Part shown: positions 20,802-35,219 of the stretch, piece by piece | How the letters are laid out: the number at the start of each line of letters is the position of its first letter | Numbering within the stretch: position 1 is the first letter of the stretch | Source: Terriglobia bacterium | GTDB taxonomy: Bacteria > Acidobacteriota > Terriglobia > 20CM-2-55-15 | Length of the DNA stretch: 64,000 nt | Direction: 5' to 3' | Assembly (NCBI GenBank): GCA_963664115.2 | Contig: CAXWPJ010000011.1 | Coordinates: 32,001 to 96,000 of the forward strand | Made by a program: the position numbers and the translations under genes | Notes under the pieces: model-generated | The model's input: the letters and a program-made list of their open reading frames with translations, nothing else | Database searches by the model: none | Told to the model about the DNA's origin: nothing

Positions 20802-21310
20802 TCAACGGCAGTCATCGAACCAGTCGGGTTTCAATCGAATATATGAGTTCACAACGGATGCGAGTTGAGCGCCCACAGCGACCGAAACAGCGTATACCTT
20901 TTTATTGTTAAGTCGCACTGCTTCTACCGCAGGCGTGAAGTCCCCATCCGCAGACAGCAGGTAGGCAGCATCGAACTCATCCCGCTCGGCCATGACCACC
21001 ATATCGACTGCAACCATCACGTCTACAGCTTTTTCAACCATTGCGGTTGTTTTGTGATGAGTACGGGCGAGCCGGCCGAGATCGTGATAGACCTGTTGGT
21101 CAATTCGCGTCGGGAGATTAGCGAGATACGCTGCTAGTTCCTTAGCCAGCGGATTATCGACTGGTCGCTGCTCAAGGCGACCGAGGTGAGTCGAAATCTT
21201 AGGATCAGTCGCACCGAGCGACGCCAAGAAGCGACGCTGGGCGGCGTAAAGATTGTTCGCTCCAGTCTGCGGTACTCTCCCGATATAGTATCGGGTTCCA
21301 ACCCAGCTAA
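20802..21310 (-). pseudogene. NYN domain (LabA/DUF88) protein, 5'-truncated next to IS256
   Basis: EKAVDV..AVDM and LLSADGDFTPAV motifs; N-terminal IDG.N motif missing. Confidence 0.82.
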
Positions 21311-21328
21311 ACAGACTGTAACTTATAG

Positions 21329-22772
21329 GAGTTATTGTCAAAAGTGGTGTTTAGGAGATTGATTCAAGCGGCGGCCTGATCGACTTGTGTCGCTTCGACA
21401 CCATCGTTGAATTTCACTCCGATGATTACCTTGCTCAGATCATCGAATCCTCGTAATCGTCGCCAATTGTTCTCAGCGCACTGGCCCAGTTTGAACATCA
21501 TGTGCAGCATGCCATCCCGTGCCCAGTTTGAACATCATGTGCAGCATGCCATCAGCCGTCGCGTTCGGGGGCTTCTCTTCCAGTGCAACCTCTGGATCGC
21601 TTCGTTCGGTGTCGAATGGTGGCAAAGGTCGACTCAATGGGATTCGTCGTTCTGATGCTCTGCCAGTGCTTGGCCGGAAAGTCGTAAAAGGCCAGCAGTT
21701 CCTCTCTGTCTTTCTGCAGGCAGAGTGTGGCTTTCGGATACTTCGGTTCATAGGTTTCAATGAACAAGTCGAATGCCTTCTCGGCGTCTGCCTTCGTCTC
21801 GGCCTGCCAGATCGAGTGCAGGGCCTGTTTCGCCTTCGCCTGGACCGACTTGGGCAGGCAGTTGAGGACGTTCATGACTTTGTGCATCCAGCAACGTTGT
21901 TGACGTGTCTCGGGATAGATTTCCTCCAGTGCGGCCCAGAACCCCATCGCACCGTCACCGATGGCCAACTTCGGAACATTCATCCCACGGGACTTCAGCT
22001 TCAACAAGACCTCGCGCCAACTCTGTGTCGATTCCCGTACACCGTCTTCGATCGCCAGGAAACGCTTCTCTCCGCGTTCATTCACGCCGATCACGACCAA
22101 TGCACACAACTTGGTTTGTTCCGCCCGAAGTCCGCTGTAGATGCCGTCGGCCCAGACATAGACCCAGCGATCTGCATCCAAACGCTCCTCGCATCCGAGG
22201 CGGTACTGTTCGCCCCAAACCTGTTTCAACCGCGATACCGTGCTCGCCGACAGACCCTGCGCCTGGGGACCGACAAGAACTTTTAGGGCCTCACCCATCT
22301 CGCCGCTGGAAACGCCTTTCAAATACAACCACGGCACCGCTGCTTCCAGCGACTTCGTCTTCCGAATGTACGGTGGTACCAGGGCCGATCGGAACGTCAC
22401 AGCTTCGCCCGTCTTGGCACGGACCTTCGGGATTTGGACTGTTACCGGACCCAATCCCGTCTGCAGTTCGCGTTCCGGCAGATAACCGTTGCGTACCACC
22501 CCGGCGTTTCCTGTCTCAGTTCGCCGGCCACCGTGCTGGGATAGCAGCTCTGCCAATTCGGCTTCCACTGCGCGTTGGATCAGTTGCTGTGCCCCAACTC
22601 GTAGTAGTTCTGTTACTGGATCCTCAATCGTTTCTCGACCTTCCGGTCCATTCACGTTACTCTTGCTCACAGTGGCGTATCTCCTATGGTTGCTTTGAAG
22701 TTTTGTCACAACAAATCAACCAGATACGCCGCTCTTATTCAATCCCTCAAACACCAGATTCGGTTATAACTC
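21329..22772 (-). mobile_element. IS256-family element, copy 1 (1444 bp; transposase disrupted near its 3' end; no TSD)
   Basis: Ends GAGTTATTGTC / GGTTATAACTC; 59 bp longer than the other copies because of an insertion at 21522-21584. Confidence 0.93.
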
Positions 22773-22806
22773 AGTCCTGAGAAATCATCTTGTCGGAAGT
22801 TGAGAA
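22773..22806 (+). repeat. dif-like palindromic site C (outer left arm cut by IS256)
   Basis: AGTCCTGAGAA-ATCATC-TTGTCGGAAGT-TGAGAA. Confidence 0.85.
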
Positions 22807-22857
22807 AAAAGAAGGGAAAATTTCTTATCGAGTTCCAGATAATCGTAGTTAGGCCAG

Positions 22858-23361
22858 ATGAACTGCGAAACGATCAGACGAGCGTACAACTCTGATTCCC
22901 CACGGATAATTTCGCTCATAGCCGACGTCTATCGAGAGTACGGCGACGAGATCTATCTAGAAGGAGCGGACAAGGATCTAGTTGATATTGAAGGATATTA
23001 CCGACAGGTAAGCGGGGATTTTGTCATATTGGAAAGGAATGACGAAATCGCAGGAACGCACGCCGTACTCCCGCTTGACCTAGCGAACCGCGTCATAACC
23101 TTCAGACGGCTGTACCTTCGGCAGGAGTTGCGTGGGTCGGGTTGCGGAAAGCGGTTGATGAAATGGGCAATCGATTGGTCGATGCGCGAAGGCTATCACT
23201 CAGTAGAGTTTTGGTCTGACATACGATTCCAACGGGCACACAGGTTCTTTCAGCAATTAGGTTTCACGAAAGGGGATACTCGGAATATGACAGATGGAGC
23301 CATGCCCTACTCAGAGTATCGATTCTCAATGAACTTGTTTGGGCAAAATAATATTGCCTAA
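22858..23361 (+). CDS. GNAT family N-acetyltransferase with integron-cassette signature
   Basis: RRLYL..ELRGSGCGKRL acetyl-CoA motif; GTTAGGC at 22848 and GCCTAAC at 23356 overlapping the stop. Confidence 0.88.
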   Translation: MNCETIRRAYNSDSPRIISLIADVYREYGDEIYLEGADKDLVDIEGYYRQVSGDFVILERNDEIAGTHAVLPLDLANRVITFRRLYLRQELRGSGCGKRLMKWAIDWSMREGYHSVEFWSDIRFQRAHRFFQQLGFTKGDTRNMTDGAMPYSEYRFSMNLFGQNNIA

Positions 23362-23460
23362 CACGGGATGCAGTGGACGGCCTTCCGCTGGCGCTCCAGG
23401 CTCCACGGGTGGTCGAGGTCCACGTTTGGGGCCTAACAAGCCGCTGCAGCTGGCGGGGCC
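23356..23460 (+). repeat. Two truncated attC-like left halves
   Basis: GCCTAACACGGGATGCAGTGGACGG (23356) and GCCTAACAAGCCGCTGCAGC (23431); matching right halves absent. Confidence 0.6.
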
Positions 23461-23480
23461 GGCAAAAGAGGTGAAAATGA

Positions 23481-23520
23481 TTCTCAAGTCCTGAGAAATC
23501 ATCTTCTCGGACGTTGAGAA
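23481..23520 (+). repeat. dif-like palindromic site D (complete)
   Basis: TTCTCA-AGTCCTGAGAA-ATCATC-TTCTCGGACGT-TGAGAA, with extra outer IR GGTGAAA (23470) / TTTCACC (23526). Confidence 0.92.
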
Positions 23521-23567
23521 TTGGATTTCACCACTTTTCGGGACCAATCACCACAGCTAGTGACCAT

Positions 23568-23930
23568 ATGAGCCTATCCAGCGCGACCCCTATTCTTAGA
23601 ATCTTCGACGAAGCAAAAGCGAAGGAATTCTATGGCTCTTACTTGGGGTTTTCCGTGGACTGGGAGCATCGGTTTGGTGATGAGTTCCCTCTGTACATGC
23701 AACTGTCCAAAGATAACTGCGTCCTTCATCTTTCCGAACACCACGGCGACGGGACGCCAGGGAGCGCGATTCGCATCGAAACTGATGACGTTGGTGCTTT
23801 GAATCAAGAACTACTGGACAAGGCCTATCGATACGTGAAGCCAAGCGTCGAAGAGAAACCGTGGAACACAAAAGAGATGACGATCACCGATCCGTTTGGC
23901 AATCGATTGATCTTTTTCGAGAACGAATAG
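23568..23930 (+). CDS. VOC/bleomycin-resistance-like glyoxalase family protein
   Basis: PILRIFDE.KAKEFY..YLGF.VDWEHRF, LHLSEHHGD, DPFGNRLIF. Confidence 0.9.
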   Translation: MSLSSATPILRIFDEAKAKEFYGSYLGFSVDWEHRFGDEFPLYMQLSKDNCVLHLSEHHGDGTPGSAIRIETDDVGALNQELLDKAYRYVKPSVEEKPWNTKEMTITDPFGNRLIFFENE

Positions 23931-23942
23931 CCCTGAAATCCG

Positions 23943-23979
23943 TTCTCAAGTCCTGAGAAATCATCTTCTCGGACGTTGA
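23943..23979 (+). repeat. dif-like palindromic site E
   Basis: Identical to site D over TTCTCAAG...GGACGTTGA. Confidence 0.92.
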
Positions 23980-24005
23980 ACTCCAGACTGGTACTCTCTT
24001 CAGTA

Positions 24006-24917
24006 ATGCCTACCGGTAAACCTTGGCTACCTGAGCATATCGTGATGCCAGATGCGGCCGTTCGTCTGATCGAAAGCCAATTCCCGGAGCTTCGACCTGC
24101 GCATATCCAACTTCTAGGTGAGGGTTGGGACAATACGGCCTACGTAGTGAACAGGACTTGGGTTTTCCGGTTTCCTCGCCGAGAGATAGCGGTGGAACTG
24201 CTGCAGACGGAAACTCGCGTCCTTCCTCGAATTGCAGCTCAGTTGCCTTTCCCTATCCCAGTACCAAGATGGGTTGGTAAGCCAACACAAGAGTATGATT
24301 GGCCGTTTGCGGGCTATCGCTTTCTTCCAGGCACCACGGCACTGAGTGTTGGATTGACGCGAGAGCAGAGGAAGGAACTTGCTGCTCCCTTAGCGAATTT
24401 CTTAGCAACTCTACATGCCATTGATCCGGGAGATCTGGAAATTCCGGGAGATAAATTTGGCCGAGCTGACATGGGAAAACGTATTCCACAGTTGCTCTCA
24501 AGTCTTCTGACGATTCGAGGAAAGGGATTGGTTGCTGACGTTTCACCTTGGGAACGGATCGTTGAACAGATGTCATCGGACTTTCAACCGCGGTTGAACA
24601 CATTGTCACACGACGATTTTTCAGCGGAGCATATCCTTGTGGACAACTTTGGACTGCCAAGCGGCGTGATTGACTGGGGCGACATCCACCTAGGAAGCCC
24701 CAGTATGGATTTGGCTATTGCGTTCGGTTTTCTGCCACCCGAGGGTCGCGAAGTATTTTGGGATAGCTATGGAGCCGTCGAAAAGCCGATCCAAATCATG
24801 GCGCGATTTCGTGCTCTCCACGCCGCCGTCATTGGTGTCCTATATGGCGATGATATTGGCGACACTGCTCTCCTGCGCGAGAGCTTATTGGGGATGGACT
24901 TCGCGATAGAGTCGTGA
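24006..24917 (+). CDS. Aminoglycoside-phosphotransferase (APH) family kinase
   Basis: GEGWDN, VFRFPRR, HDDFSAEHIL (Brenner-type motif), VIDWGD. Confidence 0.88.
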   Translation: MPTGKPWLPEHIVMPDAAVRLIESQFPELRPAHIQLLGEGWDNTAYVVNRTWVFRFPRREIAVELLQTETRVLPRIAAQLPFPIPVPRWVGKPTQEYDWPFAGYRFLPGTTALSVGLTREQRKELAAPLANFLATLHAIDPGDLEIPGDKFGRADMGKRIPQLLSSLLTIRGKGLVADVSPWERIVEQMSSDFQPRLNTLSHDDFSAEHILVDNFGLPSGVIDWGDIHLGSPSMDLAIAFGFLPPEGREVFWDSYGAVEKPIQIMARFRALHAAVIGVLYGDDIGDTALLRESLLGMDFAIES

Positions 24918-24959
24918 CCGAGACAATTCCTAGAACTAGACTACGGGAAGTCAGTCCGC

Positions 24960-26344
24960 GAGTTATTGTCAAAAGTGGTGTTTAGGAGATTGATTCAAGC
25001 GGCGGCCTGATCGACTTGTGTCGCTTCGACACCATCGTTGAATTTCACTCCGATGATTACCTTGCTCAGATCATCGAATCCTCGTAATCGTCGCCAATTG
25101 TTCTCAGCGCACTGGCCCAGTTTGAACATCATGTGCAGCATGCCATCCCGTGTCAGGCAACCTCTGGATCGCTTCGTTCGGTGTCGAATGGTGGCAAAGG
25201 TCGACTCAATGGGATTCGTCGTTCTGATGCTCTGCCAGTGCTTGGCCGGAAAGTCGTAAAAGGCCAGCAGTTCCTCTCTGTCTTTCTGCAGGCAGAGTGT
25301 GGCTTTCGGATACTTCGGTTCATAGGTTTCAATGAACAAGTCGAATGCCTTCTCGGCGTCTGCCTTCGTCTCGGCCTGCCAGATCGAGTGCAGGGCCTGT
25401 TTCGCCTTCGCCTGGACCGACTTGGGCAGGCAGTTGAGGACGTTCATGACTTTGTGCATCCAGCAACGTTGTTGACGTGTCTCGGGATAGATTTCCTCCA
25501 GTGCGGCCCAGAACCCCATCGCACCGTCACCGATGGCCAACTTCGGAACATTCATCCCACGGGACTTCAGCTTCAACAAGACCTCGCGCCAACTCTGTGT
25601 CGATTCCCGTACACCGTCTTCGATCGCCAGGAAACGCTTCTCTCCGCGTTCATTCACGCCGATCACGACCAATGCACACAACTTGGTTTGTTCCGCCCGA
25701 AGTCCGCTGTAGATGCCGTCGGCCCAGACATAGACCCAGCGATCTGCATCCAAACGCTCCTCGCATCCGAGGCGGTACTGTTCGCCCCAAACCTGTTTCA
25801 ACCGCGATACCGTGCTCGCCGACAGACCCTGCGCCTGGGGACCGACAAGAACTTTTAGGGCCTCACCCATCTCGCCGCTGGAAACGCCTTTCAAATACAA
25901 CCACGGCACCGCTGCTTCCAGCGACTTCGTCTTCCGAATGTACGGTGGTACCAGGGCCGATCGGAACGTCACAGCTTCGCCCGTCTTGGCACGGACCTTC
26001 GGGATTTGGACTGTTACCGGACCCAATCCCGTCTGCAGTTCGCGTTCCGGCAGATAACCGTTGCGTACCACCCCGGCGTTTCCTGTCTCAGTTCGCCGGC
26101 CACCGTGCTGGGATAGCAGCTCTGCCAATTCGGCTTCCACTGCGCGTTGGATCAGTTGCTGTGCCCCAACTCGTAGTAGTTCTGTTACTGGATCCTCAAT
26201 CGTTTCTCGACCTTCCGGTCCATTCACGTTACTCTTGCTCACAGTGGCGTATCTCCTATGGTTGCTTTGAAGTTTTGTCACAACAAATCAACCAGATACG
26301 CCGCTCTTATTCAATCCCTCAAACACCAGATTCGGTTATAACTC
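24960..26344 (-). mobile_element. IS256-family element, copy 2 (1385 bp, intact)
   Basis: 9-bp TSD TCAGTCCGC at 24951-24959 and 26345-26353. Confidence 0.96.
24995..26281 (-). CDS. IS256-family transposase
   Basis: RNGY, WADG, AIGDG, QRCWMHK, RTTNPIES motifs. Confidence 0.95.
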   Translation of the reverse strand: MTKLQSNHRRYATVSKSNVNGPEGRETIEDPVTELLRVGAQQLIQRAVEAELAELLSQHGGRRTETGNAGVVRNGYLPERELQTGLGPVTVQIPKVRAKTGEAVTFRSALVPPYIRKTKSLEAAVPWLYLKGVSSGEMGEALKVLVGPQAQGLSASTVSRLKQVWGEQYRLGCEERLDADRWVYVWADGIYSGLRAEQTKLCALVVIGVNERGEKRFLAIEDGVRESTQSWREVLLKLKSRGMNVPKLAIGDGAMGFWAALEEIYPETRQQRCWMHKVMNVLNCLPKSVQAKAKQALHSIWQAETKADAEKAFDLFIETYEPKYPKATLCLQKDREELLAFYDFPAKHWQSIRTTNPIESTFATIRHRTKRSRGCLTRDGMLHMMFKLGQCAENNWRRLRGFDDLSKVIIGVKFNDGVEATQVDQAAA

Positions 26345-26372
26345 TCAGTCCGCACGGTAGATGATCTAACCG

Positions 26373-26412
26373 CTCAAGTCCTGAGAAATCATCTTCTCGG
26401 ACGTTGAGAATT
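26373..26412 (+). repeat. dif-like palindromic site F
   Basis: CTCAAGTCCTGAGAAATCATCTTCTCGGACGTTGAGAATT, identical to site D. Confidence 0.92.
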
Positions 26413-26572
26413 GGCAGCGCCGGGCAGAAACAACCGAGTCCGTCGAGTCATCCCCTAAAACCAACAACTTAGAGCCGAGGCGGTGGGGCGAGTCGCTATC
26501 GAGGCGGACGAGGTGTGTGGCTCGGTTGCGTCGGTGGTTTCACCAGCCTGTGGCACGTCCCCATCGCGGCCA

Positions 26573-28116: not shown

Positions 28117-29103
28117 TCACATAATCGTCTTGTGTGCTCTTGAACCCCTCTTCAACTCGCCGAAAGGAACTGAGAATACCCCCTCTTCGCCAAGCAATCG
28201 ACGCCTGAGGCGAAGAAAATCGACGAGTGGAATCTCTCCCGACAGAATCACCATCAAGTCATGTCCGCTCATGGCGAAGAAGGTAGCCTGTTTTCCACGG
28301 ACGATGGCCTGTGAAGCATCTTGGCTCATTCCATTCAGTGCGATGAGCAGTCCCCGAGTGTACGCGGACTTACCTTCAATCTTTCCTCTGAAAACTAGGA
28401 GTTCTGACTCTGGCACCGGTTGTTGTACCCATTTTGCCTCAAGCAAGTAGACTTCGTGATCCAATTCAAATGAGCCATCTATCTGCTCACCGAGGACCCG
28501 AAAAGGCTTGCGTGGTGCGAGGTCAGATGCTTCAAAAAGCTTGTTGAGCAATCGTTCTAACTCGAAACCTGCAGCATTTCTATCGACCATCGTGCAGAGT
28601 TCTAAGAGTTGGTTCTTCAGCTGTTCAAGCTCTTCGTTTCGCCGATCTCGCACAGTTGCTTGGGTTTTCTCCCGGCGAATCGCTTCCTCAAACAATTCCT
28701 TAGCTCGATCACCAGAGTCATATGACAGCGAGACGAGGAGATCGGGATCCCAAAGCTCTGGGAACTTGAATCCAACTTCGAGGATTAGTCCGTTTAGTGA
28801 CTTAATTTCCTCTGATCTAACCGGATTGCCCTTTTTTTGCCGATAGGCAATGCCTTGATTGACAATTTCTAGGATGAGCCGCTGGAAGTAACCTCGATCA
28901 TTTTCGAGCGTACGTCTAATCAAAGTAGCGATTGCCGCGGTCTTGCTTCCACCGGGCCAGTTGTCTCCAACTCCAGCCTTGGCTGCAACGGAGGCAAACG
29001 TGACGTGATTCTTCCATTTGCGATTGCCGGAGCCAGGCAGAAAGTCATACAGCAATTCCGCCATGGCAGCGAGAGCGACCGATTCTTTGGGTGTTAGGGG
29101 CAC
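28117..29103 (-). CDS. Mrr-like PD-(D/E)xK restriction endonuclease domain protein
   Basis: GFELE...EQIDGSF.....YLLEAKW; probable GTG start at 29103 after GAGGTGGA. Confidence 0.82.
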   Translation of the reverse strand: MPLTPKESVALAAMAELLYDFLPGSGNRKWKNHVTFASVAAKAGVGDNWPGGSKTAAIATLIRRTLENDRGYFQRLILEIVNQGIAYRQKKGNPVRSEEIKSLNGLILEVGFKFPELWDPDLLVSLSYDSGDRAKELFEEAIRREKTQATVRDRRNEELEQLKNQLLELCTMVDRNAAGFELERLLNKLFEASDLAPRKPFRVLGEQIDGSFELDHEVYLLEAKWVQQPVPESELLVFRGKIEGKSAYTRGLLIALNGMSQDASQAIVRGKQATFFAMSGHDLMVILSGEIPLVDFLRLRRRLLGEEGVFSVPFGELKRGSRAHKTIM

Positions 29104-29229
29104 ACTCCACCTCAGACCCGGCTGCACGCACGGGCGACGTACGCCGAGGCATGCCTGCGAAGCGTTGCAGACAGATAACAAACATTCTGTCGGACAGGTG
29201 GACAAGTCAGGGGATTTCGCCGGCATTAC

Positions 29230-29354
29230 TTGTGGTGAGCAGCGTGAAGCCGCCGTGTCCGAGAGCACAGGATGGTCGCGTCATTCGGCGGATCTTGATC
29301 GACCGGCAGGATCTGGATGCGTTTATTGACCGGAACAACGAGACAATGGGTTGA
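29230..29354 (+). pseudogene. Excisionase/HTH remnant
   Basis: RRILIDRQDLDAFIDRN* resembles the C-terminus of excisionase-type HTH proteins. Confidence 0.55.
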
Positions 29355-32541: not shown

Positions 32542-33147
32542 AAGAGACAGGGAGGCGAAGATAAGTGATCTATAAGAGAGGCAAGACTGGGATTTATTGG
32601 TACGAGTTCATGTGGAAGGGTAAGCGCGTTCGGGAGAGCACAAATCAACGAAACAACCGGGTGGCGCGTCAGATGGAAGCAGCCAGAAAGACACAGTTTG
32701 CGAAAGGTGAGGTCGGGATCGAGATAGTCGGACCAGGGCCCACTTTTGTGGACTACGCAGACAATTGGTTGAATGGCCACGCGAAAACGAATTGCAAGTA
32801 TTCGACTTGGAAGAGTTACCAGTCGGTCATCGAAAATCACCTTAAGCCGTTATTTGGGTCACGACGGATCGACGAGATCACACGCAAGGATGTGGAGCGC
32901 CTGATAACTAAGAAGTTACGGCGGGAAAATGCCGCTCGATCCACAGTGCGGAACATTATCGCTCCACTGCGCGAGATGCTTAACCACGCCGTCGATGATG
33001 ATGAATTGGCGATCAGCATAAATCCGGCTAACCGAGTTGGGCGCTATTTCAGAAACGTGAACGCGAAAAAGACTCGTCTGAACGTAAACGCGTTGACGAA
33101 GCCGGAAATTAGCCGTCTTATCGACGCGGCTACTCGGTTTGGGTTTC

Positions 33148-34532
33148 GAGTTATAACCGAATCTGGTGTTTGAGGGATTGAGAAAAAGCGGCGTATCTGG
33201 TTGATTTGTTGTGACAAAACTTCAAAGCAACCAAAGGAGATACGCCGCTGTGAGCAAGAGTAACGTGAATGGACCGGAAGGTCGAGAAACGATTGGAGAT
33301 CCGGTGACCGAGCTATTACGAGTTGGAGCGCAGCAACTGATCCAGCAGGCCGTGGAAGCCGAATTGGCAGAACTGCTATCCCAGCACGGTGATCGACGAA
33401 CCGAGACGGGCAACGCCGGGGTGGTGCGCAACGGTTATCTGCCAGAACGCGAACTGCAGACCGGCCTGGGTCCGGTAACGGTGCAAATTCCGAAGGTCCG
33501 TGCCAAGACAGGCGAAGCTGTGACGTTCCGATCGGCGCTGGTACCGCCCTACATTCGGAAGACGAAATCGCTGGAAGCAGCGGTGCCGTGGTTGTATTTG
33601 AAAGGCGTCTCCAGCGGCGAGATGGGGGACGCCCTAAGAGTTCTTGTCGGTCCCCATGCGCAGGGACTGTCGGCGAGTACGGTATCGCGATTGAAACAGT
33701 CCTGGGCCGAGCAGTACCGCCGTGGAAGCGAGGAGCGTTTGGATGCCGATCGCTGGGTCTATGTCTGGGCCGACGGCATCTACAGCGGACTTCGGGCGGA
33801 ACAAAGCAAGTTGTGCGCATTGGTCGTGATCGGCGTGAATGAACGCGGAGAGAAGCGTTTTCTGGCGATCGAGGATGGTATCCGGGAATCGACACAGAGT
33901 TGGCGTGAGGTCTTGTTGAAGCTGAAGTCACGTGGAATGAATATCCCGGAGTTGGCCATCGGTGACGGTGCGATGGGGTTCTGGGCCGCACTGGAAGAGA
34001 TCTATCCCAAGACACGCCAACAACGCTGCTGGATGCACAAAGTCATGAACGTGCTCAACTGCCTGCCCAAGTCGGCCCAGCCGAAGGCAAAGCAGGCCTT
34101 GCACTCGATCTGGCAGGCCGAGACAAAGGCGGACGCCGAGAAGGCATTCGACCTGTTCATTGAAACCTATGAGCCGAAGTATCCGAAAGCCACTCTCTGC
34201 CTCCAGAAAGACAGAGAAGAACTGCTGGCCTTCTTCGACTTCCCGGCCAAGCACTGGCAGAGCATCCGAACGACGAATCCCATCGAGTCGACCTTTGCCA
34301 CCATTCGCCACCGGACCAAGCGATCCAGGGGGTGCCTGACACGGGACGGCATGTTGCACATGATGTTCAAACTCGGCCAATGTGCCCAGAAGAACTGGCG
34401 ACGATTACGAGGGTTCGATGATCTGGCCAAGGTGATTACTGGAGTGAAATTCAACGATGGAATCGAAGTGACAAACGTCGATCAGGCCGCCGCTTGAATC
34501 AATCTTCCAAACACCACTTTTGACAATAACTC
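33148..34532 (+). mobile_element. IS256-family element, copy 4 (diverged isoform)
   Basis: 9-bp TSD TTGGGTTTC at 33139-33147 and 34533-34541; 1385 bp; many substitutions relative to copies 1-3. Confidence 0.96.
33211..34497 (+). CDS. IS256-family transposase (isoform)
   Basis: Same motifs as the other copies, 428 aa. Confidence 0.95.
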   Translation: MTKLQSNQRRYAAVSKSNVNGPEGRETIGDPVTELLRVGAQQLIQQAVEAELAELLSQHGDRRTETGNAGVVRNGYLPERELQTGLGPVTVQIPKVRAKTGEAVTFRSALVPPYIRKTKSLEAAVPWLYLKGVSSGEMGDALRVLVGPHAQGLSASTVSRLKQSWAEQYRRGSEERLDADRWVYVWADGIYSGLRAEQSKLCALVVIGVNERGEKRFLAIEDGIRESTQSWREVLLKLKSRGMNIPELAIGDGAMGFWAALEEIYPKTRQQRCWMHKVMNVLNCLPKSAQPKAKQALHSIWQAETKADAEKAFDLFIETYEPKYPKATLCLQKDREELLAFFDFPAKHWQSIRTTNPIESTFATIRHRTKRSRGCLTRDGMLHMMFKLGQCAQKNWRRLRGFDDLAKVITGVKFNDGIEVTNVDQAAA

Positions 34533-35219
34533 TTGGGTTTCAGACTTATGCCCTAATCCTCTTCGCGGTTCGTACTGGGCTACGGATGGGAGAACTATTC
34601 GGGCTTCAGTGGTCAGATCTAGATTTGGACTCCCGATTCGTTGAGGTCCGTCGAAATATCGTAAGGGGGCGGACTGGAACGCCGAAAAGCGGCTACCTTC
34701 GTCGAGTAGACTTATCTAACCAGTTAGTAAAGGCGTTGATGGATCTGCAACGCCGGAGGAAAGAGGAATACTTTAAATTAGGCGAAGACATGCCTGAGTG
34801 GGTCTTTATCAACGGAGAAGGCCGACCGCTTGATCAAAACAATTTGAGGAATCGAATCTTCTACCGGGTGCTCGACTCGGCAGGTCTGCGGCGCGTTCGC
34901 TTCCACGACTTAAGGCATTCCTTTGCAAGTCTGTTACTCCAACAAGGTGAATCTCTTGCGTATGTGAAGGAACAGCTTGGGCACGAATCCATTAAGATGA
35001 CCGTGGATATTTACGGCCATCTGATTCCGGGCACCAACAAGCAGGCCGTGGACCGGCTCGACGATGTCGGGGCGGTGAACTTTTAGAACAGTCGGACAGT
35101 GTGAGTGCCGGGGAGTCCGGCTCGAAACCTACTCGCCCCAAAGATCGGACTCCCCACAGATCCCCCCACAGGCGAATAGTCGCGGGTTCGCTCGCCTACG
35201 TAAGTTGTCTGTTATCAAG

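What the first reader, a model, noticed from the sequence alone, without database searches (positions are those of the whole stretch)
22773..26412. Candidate new gene-cassette system: single resistance-like genes separated by direct-repeat dif-like sites
Seen: four co-oriented sites (22773, 23481, 23943, 26373), three of them identical over 35 nt. The core is AGTCCTGAGAA-ATCATC-TTCTCGGACGT inside an outer TTCTCA/TGAGAA palindrome, and folds as a hairpin with two unpaired bases. Each interval holds one gene: GNAT (714 bp), VOC/bleomycin-resistance-like (462 bp) and APH kinase (1034 bp after removing IS256 and one TSD). Known: 11-6-11 is the geometry of Xer/dif tyrosine-recombinase sites, and direct repeats with equal spacers allow excision of circles. 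The site lacks attC boxes and the TTATGTTAA XerD arm. Inference: an integron-like or dif-module-like array using a site family I do not recognise. The recombinase is unidentified; the island integrase is phage-type and may be unrelated.
Basis: partly seen in the sequence, partly recalled or inferred. Interest (0 to 1): 0.88.

Follow-up and report, generated by a model that had tools for sequence, protein, structure and literature searches.

The report
Recombinase-site gene cassette arrays, Acidobacteria
The four repeats are four of about 180 copies of one short DNA site that bounds swapped gene modules across this bacterium's genome, likely cut and rejoined by a dedicated recombinase, an integron-like gene store made from different parts.

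Summary
The four sites are real but not local. The genome (a Terriglobia acidobacterium; matching runs include sponge metagenomes) holds 182 copies of this 11-6-11 site in two spacer classes. Class A sites form co-oriented rows; an inverted class B site with a promoter-like motif and a Ser/Thr kinase start usually heads the row. All three window modules recur elsewhere with other neighbours joined at the site. Cargo is general, not resistance-specific. The site is not attC (no covariation), not dif (no XerD arm) and not an IS end. The best enzyme candidate is an intact 316-aa simple tyrosine recombinase lying between two B sites; its homologues in other families carry near-identical sites. Against this: five site-bearing relatives lack it, and arm variants do not travel with their flanks, so homologous exchange or conversion also acts. 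No excised circle was shown. I found no description in the papers searched. This scan has noted similar dif-like cassette arrays on other DNA, including another acidobacterial family (unchecked notes).

The parts
22773..22800 (+). Class A site 1 (11-6-11 core); outer left part removed by IS256
22808..23480 (+). Module 1: GNAT acetyltransferase gene 22858-23361. It carries an integron-type core (22848-22854) and inverse core over the stop (23356-23362). A second copy with other neighbours on both sides is at G000:C6:37707-39773 (IS256-interrupted)
   Evidence: the integron-core reading is recalled knowledge
23481..23520 (+). Class A site 2 (full 40-bp form, core 23487-23514); also the point where the 28-kb copy on contig C6 stops matching
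23522..23942 (+). Module 2: glyoxalase/VOC gene 23568-23930; same module at G000:C6:26694-27114 behind a different left neighbour
23943..23983 (+). Class A site 3 (core 23949-23976)
23984..26370 (+). Module 3: APH-family phosphotransferase gene 24006-24917 plus inserted IS256. An IS256-free copy with a different left neighbour starts at G000:C12:559033 (minus strand); its right site is split by IS110
24960..26344 (-). IS256-family insertion with 9-bp target duplication (24951-24959 / 26345-26353); passenger, absent in 2 of 4 runs laid
26371..26411 (+). Class A site 4 (core 26377-26404)
21329..22772 (-). IS256 copy abutting site 1; no matching target duplication, so the array's upstream part was probably rearranged away (inference)
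32565..35086 (+). Phage-type integrase split by IS256 near tRNA-Arg; no site within 3 kb, not considered part of the system

Best explanation
The repeat is likely the target site of a dedicated, single-subunit Xer-like tyrosine recombinase, and it has multiplied into chromosomal rows of swappable gene modules. Shown: 182 sites in two spacer classes; rows of co-oriented class A sites headed by an inverted class B site with a promoter-like motif and the start of a Ser/Thr kinase gene; modules re-joined to new neighbours within the site. Inferred: the ancestral unit is recombinase, site, promoter, kinase, site. Foreign DNA replaced the kinase interior by non-specific joining, leaving short stubs. 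A-by-A recombination then excises, inserts and reorders modules, B heads supply transcription, and junction migration or homologous conversion mixes arm variants among copies. The window holds a four-site piece of one such row whose head was probably cut away by IS256.
For: Sites: 156 A and 26 B; 139 of 156 A share one spacer while arm positions 15, 26, 27 and 33 are polymorphic in all four genomes tabulated. Swaps: 17 site pairs share the right flank with unrelated left flanks and 23 the reverse, among 339 sites of four genomes (10 of the 23 are copies of one IS110). Site-to-site modules of 1248 and 348 nt sit in contexts differing on both sides. Polarity: 41 of 41 B sites with an inner A within 8 kb face it oppositely (14 more have none); 50 of 70 single-ORF modules are co-oriented; 33 of 56 B heads have a -35/-10-like motif and 40 of 56 a kinase start. 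Enzyme: the 316-aa recombinase at G000:C5:52189-53154 lies between two inverted B sites with arrays on both sides; its catalytic R-K-H-R-H-Y residues are invariant in 9 aligned homologues; it is present in 4 of 4 runs laid. 7 of 18 homologue loci (6 of 17 without G000) have an 11-6-11 palindrome within 160 nt upstream, against 18 of 417 tiles. Two homologues' arms match our left arm at 10 of 11, and 4 of 5 homologue-bearing genomes hold same-family sites. G030 has two direct sites with identical spacers enclosing 5.7 kb just upstream of its homologue; G007's homologue is divergent from the same kinase family, with a site after the kinase.
Against: No homologue of the recombinase was found in G002 (98 sites, 2 contigs), G003 (55 sites), G004, G441 or G442 (best hits 26-35% identity); G001's is broken. 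G009, G019 and G024 have homologues but no site match. Exchanges are not confined to the spacer: pairs sharing the right flank differ at right-arm position 26 in 8 of 17 and at 33 in 7 of 17, and non-IS pairs sharing the left flank differ at position 15 in 7 of 13; arm alleles show no linkage to flanks. 11 of 18 homologue loci lack an upstream palindrome by my rule. No circle or excision junction was shown (contigs only). Some duplicates may be two haplotypes in one assembly.
Confidence: 0.6

Rival explanations
1. The host's own XerC (with or without XerD) acts on the sites, making this a pdif-like module system.
For: The right arm matches the genome's own dif XerC arm at 8 of 11 and a class-level variant at 10 of 11. 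XerC and XerD are the only non-phage tyrosine recombinases found in site-rich G003, so they are present where the dedicated enzyme is not.
Against: Neither arm resembles the XerD arm (5-6 of 11), which a paper passage calls the more conserved one (PMC3025954). A separate single-copy dif exists in 25 of 41 relatives, most of them without these sites. The base conserved in dif at the third position from the spacer is the most variable one here.
Confidence: 0.17
2. The sites are relics of recombinase-carrying elements or a dispersed REP/BIME-like repeat, and modules are now shuffled only by homologous recombination and gene conversion within the 34-90 bp of shared sequence.
For: Arm alleles are unlinked to flanks and exchanges run across the whole site. 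76 of 156 A sites also share a kinase-end stub that lengthens the homology. 12 close inverted A/B pairs with conserved linkers resemble BIME layout (the BIME comparison is recalled). Site-rich genomes lack the candidate enzyme.
Against: The spacer stays conserved in separate classes while symmetric arm positions vary in four species, which points to selection on each copy. Swaps also occur where only the 34-bp site is shared. Rows have fixed head-to-tail polarity. The two RAYT-like genes have only one site nearby.
Confidence: 0.17
3. The site is an atypical attC-like hairpin recombined by the genome's integron integrase, or a transcription-factor operator or transposon end.
For: An intact IntI is present (439 bits against a cut-off of 265). 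The site folds with two bulges. The GNAT module carries integron-cassette marks.
Against: No covariation at the variable pairs (pair 15-26: 56 observed, 57.9 expected). The site is 40 bp. There is no site within 3 kb of intI, no attC-like hit in its 12-kb region and no IntI among G003's hits. No target duplication flanks B-to-A units. An operator would not explain flank swapping.
Confidence: 0.06

Closest known systems
Acinetobacter dif modules / pdif sites and chromosomal dif-module islands (PMC13141974 passages; PMC12907356 abstract)
   Same: 11-6-11 sites bounding one or a few accessory genes; multi-module arrays; shuffling between sites with identical or near-identical spacers; sites targeted by IS (bioRxiv 10.1101/2022.12.17.520857 passages).
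   Different: pdif sites have a XerC and a XerD arm and standard modules have inverted sites. Here there is no XerD arm, most neighbours are direct repeats with one spacer, a second class heads the row with a promoter-like motif, and a dedicated recombinase family carries the same site.
Integrons (IntI, attI, Pc, attC cassettes; recalled, not read here)
   Same: Head site plus promoter followed by co-oriented, mostly single-gene cassettes; rows without a nearby enzyme; sites used as IS and intron-like targets.
   Different: No attC structure or covariation; the enzyme is not IntI (60.8 bits against 265); 49 clusters of sites are spread over the chromosome; modules carry stubs of a kinase gene.
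Single-recombinase Xer systems (XerS, XerH, XerA) and MGE-borne simple tyrosine recombinases (PMC8138268 passages)
   Same: A simple recombinase without arm-binding domain, with a palindromic site next to its own gene (the site-beside-gene layout is recalled).
   Different: Those act on one chromosomal site or one element. Here the site is amplified to 50-180 copies per genome beside a normal XerCD/dif system.
REP/BIME repeats with RAYT (recalled)
   Same: Hundreds of short imperfect palindromes, two types, close inverted pairs, IS110 targets.
   Different: No hairpin covariation; the sites mark module joints; the linked enzyme is a tyrosine recombinase, not an HUH transposase.

Membership tests
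Integron | IntI-family integrase next to the array head | tested here: not met
   C5 recombinase scores 60.8 bits on TIGR02249 (cut-off 265); the true intI has no site within 3 kb
Integron | attC sites: structure-selected hairpins with R and L boxes | tested here: not met
   No covariation at the variable pairs; the base left of the R-like box varies; 40 bp
Integron | Head site with promoter and co-oriented cassettes | tested here: met
   41 of 41 inner A sites face B oppositely, 50 of 70 single ORFs co-oriented; promoter-like motif at 33 of 56 heads; promoter activity untested
dif modules (pdif) | 11-6-11 geometry with spacer-matched exchange | tested here: met
   298 arm pairs at 6-bp spacing against 9 at 5, 7 or 8; no spacer mismatch in 40 swap pairs, though the spacer is nearly monomorphic
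dif modules (pdif) | One XerC arm and one XerD arm | tested here: not met
   5-6 of 11 match to the genome's XerD arm
dif modules (pdif) | Modules bounded by inversely oriented sites, alternating C and D types | tested here: not met
   89 of 131 neighbouring pairs under 10 kb are direct; only B-to-A units are inverted
dif modules (pdif) | Dependence on host XerCD | not testable with these tools
   Needs a binding or recombination assay
Tyrosine recombinase (C5 enzyme) | Catalytic R-K-H-R-H-Y residues | tested here: met
   R164, K191, H261, R264, H287, Y296 invariant in 9 sequences; PF00589
Tyrosine recombinase (C5 enzyme) | Strand exchange confined to the central spacer | tested here: not met
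   Arm variants do not travel with adjacent flanks
Tyrosine recombinase (C5 enzyme) | Co-occurrence of enzyme and site | tested here: inconclusive
   Intact in 3 of 8 site-bearing family genomes and in 3 without site matches; local linkage is strong
IS / MITE end | Terminal repeats with target-site duplication and a transposase | tested here: not met
   No duplication around B-to-A units; outer bases are the least conserved
REP/BIME-RAYT | Hairpin covariation and RAYT gene flanked by the repeats | tested here: not met
   one site near the two Y1 genes

The most novel reading that the evidence does not exclude
A third, undescribed class of gene-cassette platform beside integrons and dif modules. 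A very large unstudied family of simple tyrosine recombinases (over 5,000 homologues) uses symmetric 11-6-11 sites in two incompatible spacer classes to build promoter-headed cassette rows. It makes new cassettes by swapping foreign DNA into a kinase-gene shell, so the stubs record cassette genesis, a step that is unexplained for integrons (recalled).
Probability: 0.35. Interest if true: 0.92.

Novelty: new variant of a known kind. Interest (0 to 1): 0.76.

Why it matters
It would be an integron-like capture and shuffling system built without attC or XerCD, with 182 sites in 49 clusters spanning about 0.4 Mb of a 4.9-Mb genome. It gives a likely function and target to a large recombinase family that databases label only as XerD. 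The kinase stubs at module ends make cassette origin testable. Site searches tuned to attC or dif would likely miss such arrays, and a one-enzyme system with natural incompatible spacers could be a cassette-exchange tool.

Tried and rejected
Hairpin/attC model: no covariation. Target duplication or CRISPR-like repeat copying: neighbouring sites are no more alike than random pairs (mean 2.99 against 3.15 mismatches). Tn916-like homotypic joints: the search returned essentially the known sites. The 306-aa recombinase (6 identical copies) belongs to an IS91 element; 5 of 6 copies start beside a site, but 96%-identical copies in G013 have none and G003 lacks it. Reverse transcriptases occur in 5 of 5 genus genomes, including site-poor G004, so they do not discriminate. 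No common gene lies outside B heads except the C5 case. Viral contigs: 0 site matches and 1 distant recombinase. Rfam finds only two tRNAs in 20-36 kb. The generic promoter scan did not pick up the B-head motif; my own looser pattern did. Paper searches gave no description of this system; supplements were not opened. A last script to re-derive window coordinates did not run; coordinates come.
Full report
Observation. The four repeats, their spacings, the three genes and the IS256 with its 9-bp duplication are as described. Site 1 is clipped on the left by another IS256. The genes are family-level look-alikes only: best NCBIfam scores are 32, 24 and 72 bits against cut-offs of 250, 140 and 600.

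The site is genome-wide. A profile scan finds 182 copies on 9 of 12 contigs and none in a shuffled genome. They fall into 49 clusters, 24 with three or more sites, together spanning about 0.4 Mb. There are two spacer classes, 156 A and 26 B; 139 A sites share one spacer, while positions 12, 15, 26, 27 and 33 of the 41-nt frame vary, with the same alleles in G000-G003. A strict pattern hits 6 of 41 relatives: 10, 84 and 35 copies in three congeners, 0 in G004, and one each in two genomes of another genus. G004 has a variant with another spacer. Runs holding the window stretch come from 7 studies, and the named ones above a small share are sponge metagenomes.

Modules are swapped at the site. 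Among 339 sites with full flanks from four genomes (all usable G000 sites, plus those in 40 fetched regions of G001-G003), 17 class A pairs share the right flank but not the left and 23 the reverse; 10 of the 23 are one IS110. These pairs are not all independent. A 1248-nt and a 348-nt module occur site-to-site in contexts that differ on both sides. All three window modules recur with other neighbours: GNAT and VOC on C6, APH on C12. C6:1-27165 matches C11:55471-83160 at about 99.8% and stops matching at window site 2; this may be a second haplotype in the assembly, but the breakpoint is still the site. A G003 array sits between two core genes that are 139 nt apart in G000. Cargo, from 118 of the 148 ORFs selected from 175 ORF clusters in fetched regions, includes metallo-beta-lactamase folds, GNATs, DUF6152, dehydrogenases, an extra sigma-70 (71% to the other copy), an S1 paralogue and many IS.

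Rows have polarity. All 41 B sites with an inner A site within 8 kb face it oppositely; 14 have none; 50 of 70 single-ORF modules run with the A sites, by crude ORF calling that includes transposases. On their inner side, 33 of 56 B sites carry a -35/17/-10-like motif, mostly at a fixed offset, and 40 of 56 the start of a Ser/Thr kinase with WD40-like repeats. 76 of 156 A sites follow that kinase's 3' end. Of 127 such ends only 5 belong to long kinase matches; the rest match for 140 nt or less and join unrelated DNA at variable points. I infer that modules arise when foreign DNA replaces the inside of a B-promoter-kinase-A unit; the joining mechanism is not shown. Kinase-end stubs also occur in relatives mostly without the site, so the stubs need not depend on it.

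What kind of site. It is not attC: variable pairs do not covary. It is not the chromosomal dif, which exists separately in single copy here and in 25 of 41 relatives. Both arms are XerC-like (right arm 8 of 11 to the own dif, 10 of 11 to a class variant) and neither is XerD-like. It is not a transposon end. It is a target: 10 of 11 left ends of one IS110, 8 of 8 of a second IS110-like element, 14 of 21 IS30-type ends and 3 of 3 intron-like starts lie in or beside it.

The enzyme. Of 27 tyrosine-recombinase matches in G000, one, at C5:52189-53154, fills the 1130 nt between two inverted B sites, with kinase starts and arrays pointing away on both sides. It is intact, below the XerC, XerD and IntI cut-offs, and belongs to a family of at least 5,155 proteins. 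7 of 18 homologue loci have an 11-6-11 palindrome within 160 nt upstream, against 18 of 417 tiles (one locus is G000 and two are close kin). They include two acidobacterial plasmids. In G426 and G342, from another family, the arm beside the gene matches our left arm at 10 of 11. G426 also holds a site with arms like ours and one with a B-like spacer, and G030 holds sites with the same third-position polymorphism. G030 has a 5.7-kb stretch between direct sites with identical spacers just upstream of its homologue, and G007's homologue is divergent from two kinases of the same family followed by a site. The gene is present in 4 of 4 runs laid.

Against. Five site-bearing relatives, including two-contig G002 with 98 sites, show no homologue, and three genomes have one without site matches. 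Arm alleles are unlinked to flanks and differ between pairs whose adjoining flank is 93-100% identical far more often than that divergence allows. So exchange is not confined to the spacer; junction migration, conversion or plain homologous recombination must contribute. No circle was seen.

Comparison. It works like Acinetobacter dif-module arrays (PMC13141974, passages; PMC12907356, abstract; bioRxiv 10.1101/2022.12.17.520857, passages) and is laid out like an integron (recalled), but fails a defining feature of each. Passages of PMC8138268, PMC3025954, PMC3469429 and bioRxiv 10.64898/2026.02.23.706985 gave background and no such system. Searches (listings only for the other papers) found no description; the library lacks most subscription journals and supplements were not opened. 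This scan's notes report similar arrays in other lineages, one in soil Acidobacteria with two site types; they are unchecked, were read after my own analysis, and are not counted as support.

Verdict. A real, lineage-wide cassette system on a Xer-like symmetric site: about 0.85 that modules are exchanged at the site, 0.6 that the C5-type recombinase is the enzyme. New variant of a known kind; interest 0.76.

Noticed in passing
window 22848-23470: The GNAT gene has an integron-type core before its start, an inverse core over its stop and two attC-like left halves after it: probably a former integron cassette recaptured by this system.
   Followed up: partly
G000:C9:714590-715873 (L012): Intact integron integrase with no attC-like hit in the 12 kb around it.
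   Followed up: partly
G000:C1:92926, C2:196451, C12:159118, C12:486987, C1:108595; G002:C2:2944072: IS91 elements carrying their own tyrosine recombinase begin within about 20-50 nt of a site in 5 of 6 G000 copies and 2 of 2 G002 copies; the reason is unknown.
   Followed up: partly
G000:C5:47877-49331 and 10 other places: An IS110 inserts at one fixed position in the left arm of the site; a natural RNA-guided element aimed at the cassette joints.
   Followed up: partly
G000:C6:1-27165 vs C11:55471-83160; C11:2636-9528 vs C6:38179-45072: Near-identical long blocks, including tRNA-Arg, suggest two haplotypes of one locus in the assembly.
   Followed up: partly
G013, G021, G030, G004 (L124-L175): Short 3' stubs of the Ser/Thr kinase gene are scattered in relatives that mostly lack the site; in G013 and G021 kinase genes are also stacked head to tail.
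   Followed up: partly
G000:C2:330491-332179 and C2:256969-258510: A full-length extra sigma-70 gene and an S1 paralogue travel as cargo between sites.
   Followed up: partly
window 26440-26500: A shared leader follows six class A sites in the genome; function unknown.
   Followed up: no
window 20802-21341 and 28117-29268: A NYN-domain gene and an Mrr-like nuclease gene in the island between tRNA-Pro and tRNA-Arg; possible defence genes.
   Followed up: no
G000:C11:34361-36220 and many other places: A 1.86-kb element is present in dozens of near-identical copies, so IS expansion is recent.
   Followed up: no
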